Shown in pieces: positions 10,499 to 13,146 of a stretch of DNA of 26,996 bases. The notes beneath the pieces were generated by a model. It saw nothing but the letters and a program-made list of their open reading frames with translations. It did not search any database and had not been told where the DNA came from. The stretch's first letter is position 1; each line of letters begins with the position of its first letter. This DNA comes from Deltaproteobacteria bacterium (lineage in GTDB: Bacteria > Myxococcota_A > UBA796 > SXON01): contig CANKTH010000066.1 in the NCBI GenBank assembly GCA_947486185.1, positions 1 to 26,996 on the forward strand, given 5' to 3'. Position numbers and translations under genes: made by a program.

Positions 10499-11671
10499 TC
10501 AGGACGCGGTGAGGCGGCGGCGGGGCTGATCCCGCGGAACGTACTTGCAGCGGTAGATCGCCACACCCTTCCCACCACGCGCGACCAGGCGCTCGTCCAC
10601 GATCTGGGCGGCGATGCCGGCCACGCGCGAGAAGCCGAAGAGCACGGTGTAGTACTCGCTGTCGGTGAAGCCGGTCGCGTTGAGCAGGGTGCCCGACACC
10701 GCATCGACGTTCGGGTAGGGGTTGGCGACCTTGGGGTTCTCCTGGAGAACCTTGACCGCGACCTCGCGCATGTTCCGGGCGGTCTGGAACAGAGGATCGT
10801 CGCCGCAGATACGCTCGCCGAGGGCGTACTGCACCCGCGCGCGCGGGTCCTCAGCGCGGAGCACGGCGTGCCCGAAGCCGAAAATGAGCCCTCCGGAAGC
10901 CAGCTCATTACGCACAAAGGCCTCGATCTTCGCCTTGTCCGGCGAGCCGACCTTACGCACGAAATCGAGGCAGTCCTGATTCGCACGGCCGTGCCGGGGG
11001 CCGTAGAGTCCCGCCATCGCCGCGACGTTGGAGGCGTAGACGTCGGCGAGGCCGGACGCGACCGACTTGCCGACGAAGGTGGAGAGGTTGCCACCGCCGT
11101 GGTCGAGATGGAGCACGTAGAAGATGCGGATCATCTCGGTGAGTTTGGCGGGATCACCGCCGGGCATTCCGAGCATGTGAATGAAGTTCTCCACCATGCC
11201 GAGCTCGGGACGGCTCGGAATTGGCGGGCCCCAACCCGAGCGCAGACGGAACACGTTGGCCACGAGTTCCGGCATCCGCGCGATCATATTGAAGGAGTCT
11301 TCCCGGAAATCGCCGGTTTTTCCGGTCATACCCAGGAAGGTGAGCCCCGCCATGAGCCACTCCATCGGGTGGCCGTCACGCGGGAGCGCAGAGAGGAAGC
11401 CGGTCAGGCGGAGATCGACAGCCGCTCGGCGCGCGAGATCTGCCTTGAACGCCGTGAGCTGCTCGGCGTCCGGAAGGTTCTTGTAAAAGAGCAGGTAGAC
11501 CGCGGCTTCGGGGTCGAGCAACGCGAGATCCTCGACGGGGTAACCGACGTAGTGGACGCCCTCGATCGGATCGACCGACGAGGTTCGACAGGTTCCAACC
11601 GGAAAACCACGCAACCCGGTATCAAGGTGTTCCTCGGTGACCTCGAAAAGCACCTTCTTCGTCTCTGACAT
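10499..11671 (-). CDS. gltA: citrate synthase
   Basis: 390 aa with the catalytic GFGHAVLR motif and citrate-synthase signature regions (HLDHGGGNLSTF, DPLF). Confidence 0.9.
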   Translation of the reverse strand: MSETKKVLFEVTEEHLDTGLRGFPVGTCRTSSVDPIEGVHYVGYPVEDLALLDPEAAVYLLFYKNLPDAEQLTAFKADLARRAAVDLRLTGFLSALPRDGHPMEWLMAGLTFLGMTGKTGDFREDSFNMIARMPELVANVFRLRSGWGPPIPSRPELGMVENFIHMLGMPGGDPAKLTEMIRIFYVLHLDHGGGNLSTFVGKSVASGLADVYASNVAAMAGLYGPRHGRANQDCLDFVRKVGSPDKAKIEAFVRNELASGGLIFGFGHAVLRAEDPRARVQYALGERICGDDPLFQTARNMREVAVKVLQENPKVANPYPNVDAVSGTLLNATGFTDSEYYTVLFGFSRVAGIAAQIVDERLVARGGKGVAIYRCKYVPRDQPRRRLTAS

Positions 11672-11701
11672 GGCCGCTCCAAAAGGGGGGACCCGTTATC
11701 C

Positions 11702-12336
11702 GAGACAGGGCGCCGCGACCAGGGTCGGGCGCGCTATGACGATCTCCGTACCGGCACCTACCCGTCGCGGGAACGGGCGCTGGGCGGTCTCGGTTGGACG
11801 ATCGTGCCGGTGGTGCTGGTCATCGCCGGCTTGATGCGGATCAATACGCGCTCGTGGGCCGCGACCGCCATCGTGGTGCTCTCACGGCCGCTCTCGGTGT
11901 GCGGCGCGCTCTGGCTCCTTTGGATGCTTGACTACAATCTGAGCGTCGCGGTGATCGTGGCACCATCGCGCTCGCCGGGGTGGACGCCGAGACCGGCGTG
12001 GTCATGCTGTTCTATCTCCGGCTCGCGTGGGAGAAGCGCCTACAAAGCGGCGGGATCACCTCCGCCGAAGACGCTGAGGGCGCGAACGTCGAGGGGGCCG
12101 CCCGCCGCCTCCGACCCAAGCTGATGACGGTAGTGACCGATATGATCGGCTTTATTCAAGTATTTATCGTTGGCGGCCTCGGGTCGGATGTCATGCGATG
12201 TATCGTCGCGCCGATGGTCGGCGGCCTGCTGGTGAGCTCCGCGGTAGAGCTACTCGTTCATCCCGCTGTTTTCGCGATCTGGCGCGGACGAGGCGCCAGA
12301 GGATGCGCCCCACGGCGGCCGACCCCGGCCGGCTGA
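11702..12336 (+). pseudogene. remnant of a heavy-metal-efflux RND transporter gene (CusA/CzcA family): C-terminal ~210 codons only, with a frameshift near 11945-11960
   Basis: Frame 2 (roughly 11720-11960) reads RERALGRLGWTIVPVVLVIAGLMRINTRSWAATAIVVLSRPLSVCGALWLLWMLDYNLSVA. Frame 1 (11950-12336) reads IALAGVDAETGVVMLFYLRLAWEKR...RLRPKLMTVVTDMIGFIQVFIVGGLGSDVMRCIVAPMVGGLLVSSAVELLVHPAVFAIW. Together these align with TM9-TM12 and the C-terminus of E. coli CusA (…MERAKERLSLVIPLTLLIIF…[30 protein letters not shown]…[20 protein letters not shown]…[35 protein letters not shown]). No upstream ~830 codons are present, because the gltA start lies at 11671. Confidence 0.6.
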
Positions 12337-12419
12337 CCGCGTAGAGGCCCATCGGGGAGACGGGCCCTCGAACCTTGCCCTCAGCTCCCAAACTCGATAG
12401 AGACGCCCCCCTCTTAGAC

Positions 12420-12435
12420 CCGCCCTCGTGGGCGG
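12420..12435 (+). promoter_or_regulatory. perfect 6-bp palindrome CCGCCC-TCGT-GGGCGG in the sdhC leader, 25 nt upstream of the start codon
   Basis: Read directly from the sequence. Possible operator or leader hairpin; function unknown. Confidence 0.25.
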
Positions 12436-12459
12436 CACGAGCCCTCCCAGCCCGAGGCG

Positions 12460-13146
12460 GTGATGTCCTGGCTCACGATGTTCCTCCGTTCTACCGTCGG
12501 CTCCAAAGCCGCCATGGCCGTGAGCGGCGTGATCCTCTACGGGTTCACGCTGGTTCATATGGCCGGGAACCTCAACGTTTTCCTCGGTCAGAAGGCGATG
12601 GCCGAGTACGTTCAGGTGCTCCACCTCGTGCCCGAGGTGGTCTGGGCCGTGCGCGCGGTGCTGCTCGCCTGCCTCGTGGTCCACATCGGCGCCTATAGCC
12701 GCTTGTTGGCCCAGACACGCGCGGCTCGGCCGGTGGCCTACAAGAGCTGGAAGGCCCGCGCCTCCACCTTCGCCTCCCGCAGCATGTTGGTTACCGGGCC
12801 GTTGCTCCTGATCTACATCGTGGTCCACCTGCTCCATCTCACCGTTGGCGCGCTCCAACCGCTCAAATACCAGAGCGGTGAGCACGCCCACCTGATGGAC
12901 GCCTACGCCAATCTGGTCAACGGCCTCGGCGGAAGCTGGTGGTGGATGGGCGGCTTCTACCTGATCGTGAGCGTCACGCTCGGGGTCCACCTCTGGCACG
13001 GCGGCTTTGCCTTCACCAAGACCCTCGGCCTCTCCGCGGGGCGTCAGCTCCAACTCGCGCGGCTCATCGCCACCGCGCTGGCCGTCACGGTGGCCGGCGG
13101 CAACGTGCTCATCGTCACCGCGCTGCTCACCGGCCTGGTCAAGTAG
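12460..13146 (+). CDS. sdhC: succinate dehydrogenase cytochrome b subunit, b558 (Bacillus/type-B) family
   Basis: Five predicted TM helices in 228 aa with conserved His residues ([32 protein letters not shown]), typical of diheme single-subunit anchors of type-B SQR. GTG 12460 / ATG 12463 start with a GAGG RBS. Confidence 0.8.

What the first reader, a model, noticed from the sequence alone, without database searches (positions are those of the whole stretch)
11702..12336. Frameshifted C-terminal relic of a CusA/CzcA heavy-metal RND pump wedged between gltA and sdhCAB
Two overlapping reading frames together reconstruct TM9-TM12 and the C-terminus of an HME-RND transporter; the alignment with E. 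coli CusA is unmistakable, including NLSV…IALAGV…GVVMLFYLR…RLRPKLMTVV…GSDVMRCIVAPMVGGLL. There is an indel near 11945-11960, and no room for the N-terminal ~830 codons because the gltA start is at 11671. This records a past deletion or rearrangement between two divergent TCA-cycle operons. The gltA promoter and the sdhCAB upstream region must now lie inside or beside this dead gene.
Basis: seen in the sequence. Interest (0 to 1): 0.5.

Follow-up and report, generated by a model that had tools for sequence, protein, structure and literature searches.

The report
Dead tail of a metal-efflux pump gene
The spacer between the citrate synthase and succinate dehydrogenase genes of an uncultured Myxococcota bacterium holds the broken last fifth of a copper/heavy-metal efflux pump gene, which is an ordinary pseudogene remnant and probably arrived by insertion.

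Summary
Window 11753-11959 (frame +2) and 11959-12336 (frame +1) together encode the last ~194 codons of a CusA/CzcA-family heavy-metal RND pump, covering TM8-TM12. It matches solved E. coli CusA at E=6.5e-25 and TIGR00914 at E=1.2e-32.

The two frames are joined by loss of one G (GTGGGC to GTGGC) at 11958-11960. Three other assemblies carry the same frameshift, so it is not an assembly artefact.

About 860 N-terminal codons are missing. No other cusA piece and no cusB or cusC gene lies in the window.

Nine related Myxococcota loci share the divergent sdhC / gltA arrangement. Eight have a spacer of only 166-259 bp with no cus gene, and one carries an M4 peptidase gene there. The 791-bp spacer here therefore reflects a lineage-specific insertion, not an old cus operon between the two gene clusters.

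Signs of decay:
- Eight lineage-specific changes at sites at least 90% conserved in 117 homologues.
- The only two SNPs between the window and a 20.7-kb near-identical contig both fall inside the relic.
- Low dN/dS (0.145) against the closest relative and retained GC3, which point to a fairly recent death.

This is an ordinary pseudogene remnant of low interest.

The parts
11753..11959 (+). Relic part 1 (frame +2): 69 codons matching CusA/CzcA TM8, TM9 and the first half of TM10 (GTYPSRERALGG...LDYNLSVAVIV). It has no start codon of its own. The homology boundary on the left is about 11740-11753.
   Evidence: tblastn HSPs with P0001 (75% identity), P0003, P0004 and full-length CusA homologues. 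DNA alignment with L041/L044. GC3 0.88.
11958..11960 (+). Frameshift site: one G lost from GTG GGC, giving GTGGC. Base 11959 serves both as the last base of the Val codon and the first base of the Gly codon.
   Evidence: for the reading of both frames. The sequence is identical in L042, L043 and L126, with 0 gaps.
11959..12336 (+). Relic part 2 (frame +1): 125 codons plus TGA stop (12334-12336). It matches the rest of TM10, the cytoplasmic linker, TM11, TM12 and the C-terminal tail. The counterparts of CusA E939, K984 and T987 are retained.
   Evidence: Residue roles from PMC8092243. GC3 0.76.
11980..12336 (+). The 118-aa GTG-start ORF (110 aa from ATG 12007) that gene callers annotate as a gene with an ACR_tran hit. 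I judge it a by-product of the relic, not a gene.
   Evidence: Short CusA C-terminal ORFs on long contigs elsewhere are pieces of broken cusA genes.
11804..12124 (+). A 106-aa ORF. Its first 52 codons are CusA-like (TM8-TM10) and the rest is out-of-frame read-through after the frameshift.
   Evidence: ACR_tran E=0.095 on residues 4-52 only.
11901..11901 (+). Polymorphic site G/A. It changes TGC Cys to TAC Tyr in relic frame +2.
12324..12324 (+). Polymorphic site C/A. It is synonymous (ACC to ACA) in the non-conserved tail of the relic.
   Evidence: These two sites are the only differences between the window and L126 over 20,684 nt.
11672..11752 (.). Left flank, 81 bp between the gltA start codon and the relic. 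It has no CusA similarity. The ~45 nt next to gltA (RBS GGAG, GATAAC, GGCGCCCTG on the gltA strand) resemble the spacers of relatives. It probably holds the gltA RBS and core promoter (inferred).
   Evidence: (visual similarity to L127, L007/8; pairwise scores not significant).
12337..12462 (.). Right flank, 126 bp between the relic stop codon and the sdhC ATG. It contains the conserved CGAGGC RBS-like motif. It probably holds the sdhC promoter (inferred). There is no significant RNA structure and no Rfam family.
10499..11671 (-). gltA (citrate synthase, 390 aa), first gene of gltA-sucC-sucD-ndk.
   Evidence: Pfam Citrate_synt E=4.8e-86. Synteny.
12463..13146 (+). sdhC (cytochrome b subunit, 227 aa), first gene of sdhC-sdhA-sdhB.
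   Evidence: Homologues named succinate dehydrogenase cytochrome b subunit. sdhA and sdhB confirmed by Pfam.

Best explanation
The segment is a non-functional 3' remnant (about 585 bp, the last ~194 of ~1050 codons) of a CusA/CzcA-type heavy-metal RND efflux pump gene. It sits in a spacer between the divergently transcribed gltA-sucCD-ndk and sdhCAB clusters that was ancestrally ~170-260 bp long, in an uncultured Myxococcota lineage.

Most likely history (inferred):
1. DNA carrying a functional cusA, probably the last gene of a cus/czc operon and pointing the same way as sdhC, was inserted into the spacer after this lineage split from the sampled relatives.
2. A later deletion removed everything up to codon ~860 without destroying the gltA promoter.
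3. The stump then lost one G in a G-run and began to accumulate substitutions freely.

It does nothing as a transporter. It lacks TM1-7, both periplasmic loops, D405 of the proton relay, a start codon and partner genes. Its only likely effect is to push the two promoters ~585 bp apart.

Shown: identity, truncation, frameshift, reproducibility, absence from relatives, signs of relaxed constraint. Inferred: the order of events and the size of the original insert.
For: - Identity: PDB CusA E=6.5e-25, TIGR00914 E=1.2e-32, and two collinear HSPs in adjacent frames.
- Truncation: no other CusA similarity in the window with eight full-length queries. No HlyD/OEP-type genes among the window's genes.
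- Frameshift is real: the same sequence with 0 gaps is found in L042 (ENA ERZ27280224), L043 (Logan ERR3719140) and L126 (ENA ERZ27280196), representing three haplotypes.
- Derived insertion: the spacer is 166-259 bp with no cus gene in L038, L002, L007, L008, L127-129 and L133 (gltA 72-82% identical), against 791 bp here. The non-relic flanks (81+126 bp) add up to the ancestral length.
- Whole genes can land in this spacer: there is an M4 peptidase gene in L130-132.
- Relaxed constraint: the relic differs from the consensus at 20 of 87 columns that are at least 90% conserved in 117 homologues. Eight of these are relic-only (P18V, L87F, I112N, P136Q, R150C, A152V, F163S, Y170H) against 2 that are P0001-only.
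- Relative-rate counts: 18 vs 9 at the amino-acid level, 18 vs 7 at codon position 2.
- Both of the only two SNPs in 20,684 nt fall in the 584-nt relic, chance about 8e-4.
- Recent death: pairwise dN/dS against L041 is 0.145, and GC3 is still 0.76-0.88, like host genes.
Against: - No intact donor or 5' partner was found, so the size of the original insert is unknown. A search with the upstream part of the closest homologue found nothing above 64% identity, but that search scored only 8000 candidates.
- The flank lengths add up to the ancestral spacer length. That fits direct capture of a short fragment equally well.
- The relative-rate tests are weak (chi-square 3.0 and 4.8) and dS is saturated.
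- The whole subclade (relic, P0001, P0003) is unusually divergent at conserved sites, so some 'decay' may be clade-specific divergence.
- Two SNPs are a very small sample.
- No expression data exist.
Confidence: 0.8

Rival explanations
1. Direct capture of a short fragment. A ~600-bp piece of a cusA gene, from the same genome or from foreign DNA, was pasted into a double-strand break in the gltA-sdhC spacer by illegitimate or end-joining repair. No full-length pump was ever present at this site and no later deletion is needed. The outcome is the same: a dead remnant.
For: The non-relic flanks (81+126 = 207 bp) equal the ancestral spacer length of 166-259 bp. There are no cusB/cusC traces and no other cusA pieces. 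There are no transposon-like terminal repeats or target duplications.
Against: The fragment ends at the natural stop codon of the gene and points the same way as sdhC. That is what a 5' deletion of a terminal operon gene would leave. No near-identical donor copy exists in 5.8 billion proteins, the best being 75% identical. dN/dS of 0.145 only says the sequence was under constraint for most of its divergence, and does not say where. A relative shows that whole genes do get inserted here.
Confidence: 0.3
2. The relic is remnant of an ancestral cus/czc operon that lay between gltA and sdhCAB in the common ancestor. It was lost completely in all sampled relatives and almost completely here.
For: The region between metK and gltA is variable among relatives, with sdhCAB present or absent, so rearrangements do happen here.
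Against: Eight relatives on different branches (gltA 72-82% identical) have a clean 166-259 bp spacer. None of the 40 loci has CusA similarity in the flank held for it, up to 10 kb on each side. The rival would need many independent precise losses.
Confidence: 0.05
3. The 110-118 aa ORF (11980/12007-12336; linker, TM11 and TM12) is expressed as a small membrane protein with a new role, or the relic DNA has been co-opted as a leader or promoter for sdhCAB.
For: The ORF is open, keeps a high GC3 (0.76) and is called as a gene by automatic callers. An unusual AT-rich patch (12113-12200, GC 0.43-0.48) lies ~290 bp upstream of sdhC.
Against: It has substitutions at sites that are invariant in the family: R150C, P136Q, Y170H. 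There is no convincing RBS, no sigma-70 consensus, no Rfam family and no significant RNA fold. No conserved stand-alone homologues exist. Short C-terminal CusA ORFs elsewhere are pieces of broken genes. Polymorphism is elevated, not reduced.
Confidence: 0.05
4. Assembly or sequencing artefact: a chimeric join or a homopolymer error in a metagenomic contig, with the real genome holding either no cusA here or an intact one.
For: The window comes from a metagenome assembly (MEGAHIT-style contig name). The indel lies in a short G-run. Another low-coverage contig in this lineage is chimeric (L125).
Against: Four assemblies from at least two or three read sets, made with two assemblers, give the same junctions and the same indel while differing at SNPs. 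A GG/GGG run is not error-prone for short-read data. An intact gene cannot fit, because gltA starts 81 bp to the left.
Confidence: 0.03

Closest known systems
E. coli CusA (PDB 3K07, 3NE5, 7KF5) and the HME-RND family (NCBIfam TIGR00914, Pfam PF00873 ACR_tran)
   Same: Clear homology over CusA residues ~860-1039 (TM8-TM12), E=6.5e-25 and 1.2e-32. The counterparts of proton-relay residues E939, K984 and T987 are still present.
   Different: Only about 18% of the protein is left. TM1-7, both periplasmic domains, the methionine metal sites and D405 are absent. It is frameshifted, has no start codon and has no CusB/CusC partners. It scores 112.6 bits against a family cut-off of 701. It has substitutions at invariant positions.
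Closest sequence relatives: P0001 on L041 (Logan ERR9973209, 75% aa identity) and P0003 on L044 (JGI 3300044511, 63%)
   Same: They form one divergent CusA subclade with the relic. Shared derived residues at otherwise conserved columns include Q2T, W68I and L134F. The nucleotide identity to L041 is 75%.
   Different: They lie in other genomic contexts, not next to gltA or sdhC. They extend further upstream. L041 has its own +1 G frameshift further 5'. They carry far fewer lineage-specific hits at conserved sites.
Ordinary bacterial pseudogene remnants: truncated, frameshifted gene fragments in intergenic DNA. This category is taken from general knowledge of bacterial genome decay, not tested in a database here.
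   Same: Truncation plus a homopolymer indel, loss of partner genes, elevated polymorphism and substitutions at conserved sites.
   Different: Nothing essential. The only special feature is the location, inside the shared control region of two central TCA-cycle operons.
Divergent sdhC/gltA promoter region of E. coli (PMC3798270)
   Same: gltA and the sdh operon are transcribed divergently from a shared intergenic control region. The same layout is seen here and in nine relatives.
   Different: This is a different phylum. The sdh operon type differs (a single cytochrome b subunit SdhC, then SdhA and SdhB, with no SdhD). The regulators are unknown, and the spacer here is enlarged by the relic.

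Membership tests
CusA/CzcA heavy-metal efflux RND permease (TIGR00914 / PF00873) | Significant sequence homology to the family profile | tested here: met
   TIGR00914 E=1.2e-32 on profile positions 883-1039. PDB CusA E=6.5e-25. ACR_tran E=1.1e-10.
CusA/CzcA heavy-metal efflux RND permease (TIGR00914 / PF00873) | Full-length protein (~1000-1050 aa, 12 TM helices, two large periplasmic loops) that reaches the curated family score | tested here: not met
   Only ~194 codons are present. The score is 112.6 bits against a cut-off of 701.45. No further CusA similarity anywhere in the window. gltA begins 81 bp to the left.
CusA/CzcA heavy-metal efflux RND permease (TIGR00914 / PF00873) | Uninterrupted reading frame with a start codon | tested here: not met
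   A 1-nt deletion at 11958-11960 splits the homology between two frames. There is no ATG/GTG/TTG in frame +2 before 11804.
CusA/CzcA heavy-metal efflux RND permease (TIGR00914 / PF00873) | Complete proton-relay triad D405-E939-K984, required for transport (PMC8092243) | tested here: not met
   The counterparts of E939 and K984 are retained in the alignment, but the TM4 region that carries D405 is absent.
CusA/CzcA heavy-metal efflux RND permease (TIGR00914 / PF00873) | Adjacent membrane-fusion (CusB/CzcB) and outer-membrane factor (CusC/CzcC) genes | tested here: not met
   Pfam on the window's genes and the precomputed Pfam hits on L126 show only housekeeping genes, with no HlyD/CzcB or OEP domains.
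Pseudogene remnant (non-functional gene fragment) | Homology to a functional gene family combined with disabling lesions (truncation, frameshift) | tested here: met
Pseudogene remnant (non-functional gene fragment) | Lesions are real, not assembly errors | tested here: met
   Identical junctions and indel in L042, L043 and L126, which differ at SNPs. Raw reads were not available.
Pseudogene remnant (non-functional gene fragment) | Relaxed selective constraint on the lineage | tested here: inconclusive
   Suggestive signals: 8 vs 2 lineage-specific changes at conserved columns; relative-rate counts of 18 vs 9 and 18 vs 7; 2 of 2 SNPs inside the relic. However, the samples are small, dS is saturated and the whole subclade is divergent.
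Pseudogene remnant (non-functional gene fragment) | No transcript or protein product with a function | not testable with these tools
   No expression data. Only negative consensus scans are available.

The most novel reading that the evidence does not exclude
The gltA-sdhC spacer of this Myxococcota lineage is a recurrent landing site for foreign or translocated genes: a cusA remnant here and an intact M4 peptidase gene in L130-132. Under this reading the surviving cusA stump has been kept because it now contributes to control of sdhCAB or gltA, for example through the AT-rich patch at 12113-12200 acting as a new promoter or UP-like element, or because its 118-aa ORF encodes a small membrane protein.
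Probability: 0.06. Interest if true: 0.4.

Novelty: new member of a known kind. Interest (0 to 1): 0.15.

Why it matters
The finding matters little beyond correct annotation.
- The 118-aa 'ACR_tran' ORF that gene callers report here should be flagged as a pseudogene fragment. It should not be counted as a metal-resistance gene in MAG-based resistome surveys.
- It is a tidy example of a gene remnant that can be dated roughly: constrained for most of its history, recently dead.
- It shows that the shared control region of two core TCA-cycle operons tolerates insertions of 0.6-1.9 kb.
- If RNA 5'-end data existed, the locus could show how divergent promoters cope when pushed apart.

Tried and rejected
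1. Intact cusCBA at this position in relatives. A genome-contig scan with gltA returned 40 loci with no CusA similarity.
2. Metagenome scan with the relic. It returned only generic CusA homologues at 60% identity or less, none next to gltA or sdhC. The scan was swamped by the conserved DAETGVVM pattern.
3. Search for a 5' partner of the broken gene, using the upstream part of L041's cusA. Nothing above 64% identity was found. This is inconclusive because only 8000 candidates were scored.
4. Alignment of the spacer flanks to relatives' spacers to pin the insertion point. The sequences are too diverged (z-scores at most 2.0); only the ~45 nt next to gltA look similar by eye.
5. Mobile-element signatures. 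No convincing terminal inverted or direct repeats. The 17-nt, 82% inverted pair 11716-11732 / 12315-12331 is no better than 13 other chance pairs.
6. Sigma-70 promoter scan: 0 sites. The two terminator-like hits lie inside the relic coding sequence and look like chance.
7. Rfam: only a sub-threshold snoRNA hit, which is chance.
8. RNA folding of both flanks: z-scores 0.45 and 0.64.
9. Direction of substitutions (GC to AT against AT to GC) as a decay signal. Both lineages look AT-biased against a very GC3-rich outgroup, so it is uninformative.
10. L125 as a 'closer relative'. It is a chimeric nuoD/nuoH::sdhC contig and was discarded.
11. A stand-alone 'CusA C-terminal' protein family. The short ORFs on long contigs that I inspected (P0026, P0079) are fragments of broken cusA genes.
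12. Source names for the ORF. None is on record.

Full report
**What is in the sequence**

The interval between gltA and sdhC is 791 bp. gltA is citrate synthase, on the minus strand, with its ATG at 11671. sdhC is the succinate dehydrogenase cytochrome b subunit, on the plus strand, with its ATG at 12463.

Frame +2 from about 11753 reads GTYPSRERALGGLGWTIVPVVLVIAGLMRINTRSWAATAIVVLSRPLSVCGALWLLWMLDYNLSVAVIV. Frame +1 from 11959 then reads GTIALAGVDAETGVVMLFYLRLAWEKRLQ...RRLRPKLMTVVTDMIGFIQVFIVGGLGSDVMRCIVAPMVGGLLVSSAVELLVHPAVFAIWRGRGARGCAPRRPTPAG*, with the stop codon at 12334-12336.

**Identity of the fragment**

- The joined translation matches solved E. coli CusA chains at chain positions 882-1046, with E=6.5e-25. 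ZneA follows at 1.2e-14, and multidrug RND pumps score 1e-5 to 1e-8.
- It matches NCBIfam TIGR00914 (CusA/CzcA family) at profile positions 883-1039 of 1051, with E=1.2e-32.
- Pfam ACR_tran hits the downstream ORF alone at 1.1e-10.
- tblastn with five close homologues and eight full-length CusA proteins taken from fetched loci gives only two collinear HSPs in adjacent frames. They meet at base 11959, and nothing else in the 27-kb window matches.

Small corrections apply:
- The homology begins at about 11740-11753, not 11702.
- The piece covers TM8-TM12.
- About 860 codons are missing.
- The indel is the loss of one G from GTG-GGC at 11958-11960.

**Is it an artefact?**

The window's own contig is ENA ERZ27280196 k141_2859529 (52,232 bp), fetched as L126. 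Two 1.2-kb contigs from other assemblies, L042 (ENA ERZ27280224) and L043 (Logan ERR3719140), span the gltA start, the relic and the sdhC start.

All three are gap-free against the window and carry GTGGCACC at the frameshift site. They differ from the window at one or two SNPs, so they are not copies of one file. An intact gene cannot be hidden here, because gltA begins 81 bp to the left.

**Surroundings**

The window is housekeeping DNA from a GC-rich (~66%) genome. Its genes are:
- rpoN, a short-chain dehydrogenase and a xanthine-dehydrogenase-type three-gene set;
- a TerB-like gene, ndk, sucD, sucC and gltA;
- the relic;
- sdhC, sdhA, sdhB, metK and others.

There is no membrane-fusion or outer-membrane factor gene. 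GC content is flat across the locus. The best gltA relatives are MAGs labelled Myxococcota or Deltaproteobacteria.

**Comparative evidence**

Forty loci related through gltA were fetched with up to 10 kb of flank, and none has CusA similarity.

The exact layout metK-sdhB-sdhA-sdhC / gltA-sucC-sucD-ndk recurs in L038. The sdhC / gltA-sucCD core recurs in L002, L007 and L008, with spacers of 178-259 bp.

Contigs found through sdhC homologues add further cases:
- L127-129, whose gltA is 82% identical to the window's, have a 177-bp spacer.
- L133 has a 166-bp spacer.
- L130-132 carry an intact 534-aa M4 peptidase gene between gltA and sdhC.

The ancestral spacer was therefore short and free of cus genes. 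The relic is a derived gain in the window's lineage. The non-relic parts of the spacer (81 bp and 126 bp) add up to about the ancestral length. The ~45 nt next to gltA still resemble the spacers of L127 and L007/8 by eye, although the pairwise scores are not significant.

**Where the fragment came from**

The closest relative is P0001, at 75% amino-acid and 75% nucleotide identity. It lies on a 1.8-kb Logan contig (L041) in a different context. That cusA extends at least 300 codons further upstream and has its own +1 G frameshift. P0003 (63%) is next.

No near-identical donor exists among 5.8 billion proteins. A search for a 5' partner found none, though that search was limited.

The relic, P0001 and P0003 form a divergent CusA subclade. 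They depart from the consensus at 23%, 16% and 20% of the 87 columns that are at least 90% conserved in 117 homologues. The other homologues average 2.8%.

**State of decay**

- Apart from the truncation and one frameshift, the reading frames hold no stop codons.
- GC3 is still 0.88 and 0.76, against 0.79-0.90 for neighbouring genes.
- Pairwise dN/dS against L041 is 0.145, with dS about 1.2 and saturated. The sequence was therefore under purifying selection for most of its divergence, and its death is comparatively recent.
- Eight substitutions are unique to the relic at columns that are 91-100% conserved in the family: P18V, L87F, I112N, P136Q, R150C, A152V, F163S and Y170H. P0001 has two such changes.
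- Relative-rate counts with L044 as outgroup are 18 against 9 for amino acids and 18 against 7 for second codon positions.
- The window and L126 differ at only two positions in 20,684 nt, and both lie in the 584-nt relic: 11901 (Cys to Tyr) and 12324 (synonymous). The chance of this is about 8e-4.

Each of these signals is small, but they agree.

**Function**

The fragment cannot act as a pump. It lacks TM1-7, both periplasmic domains and D405 of the D405-E939-K984 proton relay that CusA needs for transport (PMC8092243). It also lacks a start codon and partner genes.

The 118-aa ORF that gene callers report has no support as a gene:
- It carries hits at invariant sites.
- It has no stand-alone relatives.
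- The short CusA C-terminal ORFs on long contigs that I inspected are pieces of broken cusA genes. One of them is separated from the rest of its gene by an inserted toxin-antitoxin pair.

No sigma-70 consensus, Rfam family or unusual RNA fold was found in the spacer.

An AT-rich patch at 12113-12200 (GC 0.43-0.48) results from about ten clustered GC-to-AT changes. It remains unexplained. It may be simple decay, or it may be raw material for a promoter.

**History**

I favour insertion of a cusA-bearing segment in the same orientation as sdhC, followed by a deletion from the 5' side. The reasons are that the remnant ends at the gene's natural stop codon, and that a relative shows whole genes can be inserted at this spot. 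Direct capture of a ~600-bp fragment during break repair explains the data almost as well, given the flank lengths. An ancestral operon at this position is disfavoured by the eight clean spacers.

**Comparison with the known**

The fragment is a homologue of CusA/CzcA but fails every membership criterion for a functional family member: length, curated score, intact frame, relay triad and partner genes. It belongs to the well-known class of bacterial pseudogene remnants.

The divergent gltA/sdh arrangement itself is classical in E. coli (PMC3798270).

**Verdict**

The feature is ordinary and of low interest, and its main practical consequence is an annotation caveat.

Noticed in passing
L130:1343-3254 (also L131, L132): In a relative (gltA 75% identical to the window's), an intact 534-aa M4 (thermolysin-type) peptidase gene sits between gltA and sdhC, in the same orientation as sdhC. 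This is a second, independent insertion into the same spacer.
   Followed up: partly
L041:880-905: The closest cusA relative of the relic has a +1 G in a five-G run (ATGGGGGCCC). It splits that gene into a 303-aa and a 245-aa ORF, so this CusA subclade may be decaying in more than one lineage. A Logan assembly error is the alternative.
   Followed up: partly
window 12113-12200: An AT-rich patch (GC 0.43-0.48 in a 66% GC region) lies inside the relic's TM11 segment. It results from about ten clustered GC-to-AT changes relative to L041 and L044 (TTT ATT CAA GTA TTT ATC GTT). No promoter consensus was found and its significance is unknown.
   Followed up: partly
relic, P0001 (L041) and P0003 (L044): These three form a CusA subclade that departs from the family consensus at 16-23% of highly conserved columns, against a mean of 2.8% for 117 other homologues. 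Shared changes include W68I, L134F and Q2T. This could be a functionally diverged HME-RND subgroup.
   Followed up: no
L001, L013, L019, L031 (record titles): Several MAG records in genome contigs carry implausible organism names (Klebsiella pneumoniae, Bifidobacterium breve, Chlamydia trachomatis), although their gltA-sucCD-ndk content is 67-81% identical to this Myxococcota-like window or is chlamydia-like. These are probably submission mislabels.
   Followed up: no
L003-L005, L017-L019, L021 compared with L038, L022, L007/L008: Among relatives, sdhCAB is either present between metK and gltA or absent, with metK directly next to gltA. The region upstream of gltA is structurally variable in this clade.
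   Followed up: no
L125:1-1362: This low-coverage (2.2x) ENA contig fuses nuoD and the start of nuoH in frame to the C-terminal two-thirds of an sdhC that is 76% identical to the window's. It is most likely an assembly chimera.
   Followed up: partly
L135:565-5543; L134:2409-5612: In L135 a cusA is interrupted by an inserted DUF3368/UPF0175 toxin-antitoxin pair, leaving a separate 180-aa C-terminal ORF. In L134 a cusA is broken into four ORFs, with a second broken RND gene on the opposite strand.
   Followed up: no
window 25801-26996: A 198-aa protein with an eCIS_core domain (E=2.5e-9) is followed by a winged-helix-domain protein that runs off the window end.
   Followed up: no
window 11672-11690 and 12406-12424: A 19-nt, 79% complementary inverted pair (GGCCGCTCCAAAAGGGGGG / CCCCCCTCTTAGACCCGCC) lies next to the gltA start and about 40 nt upstream of the sdhC start. 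It is probably chance.
   Followed up: no
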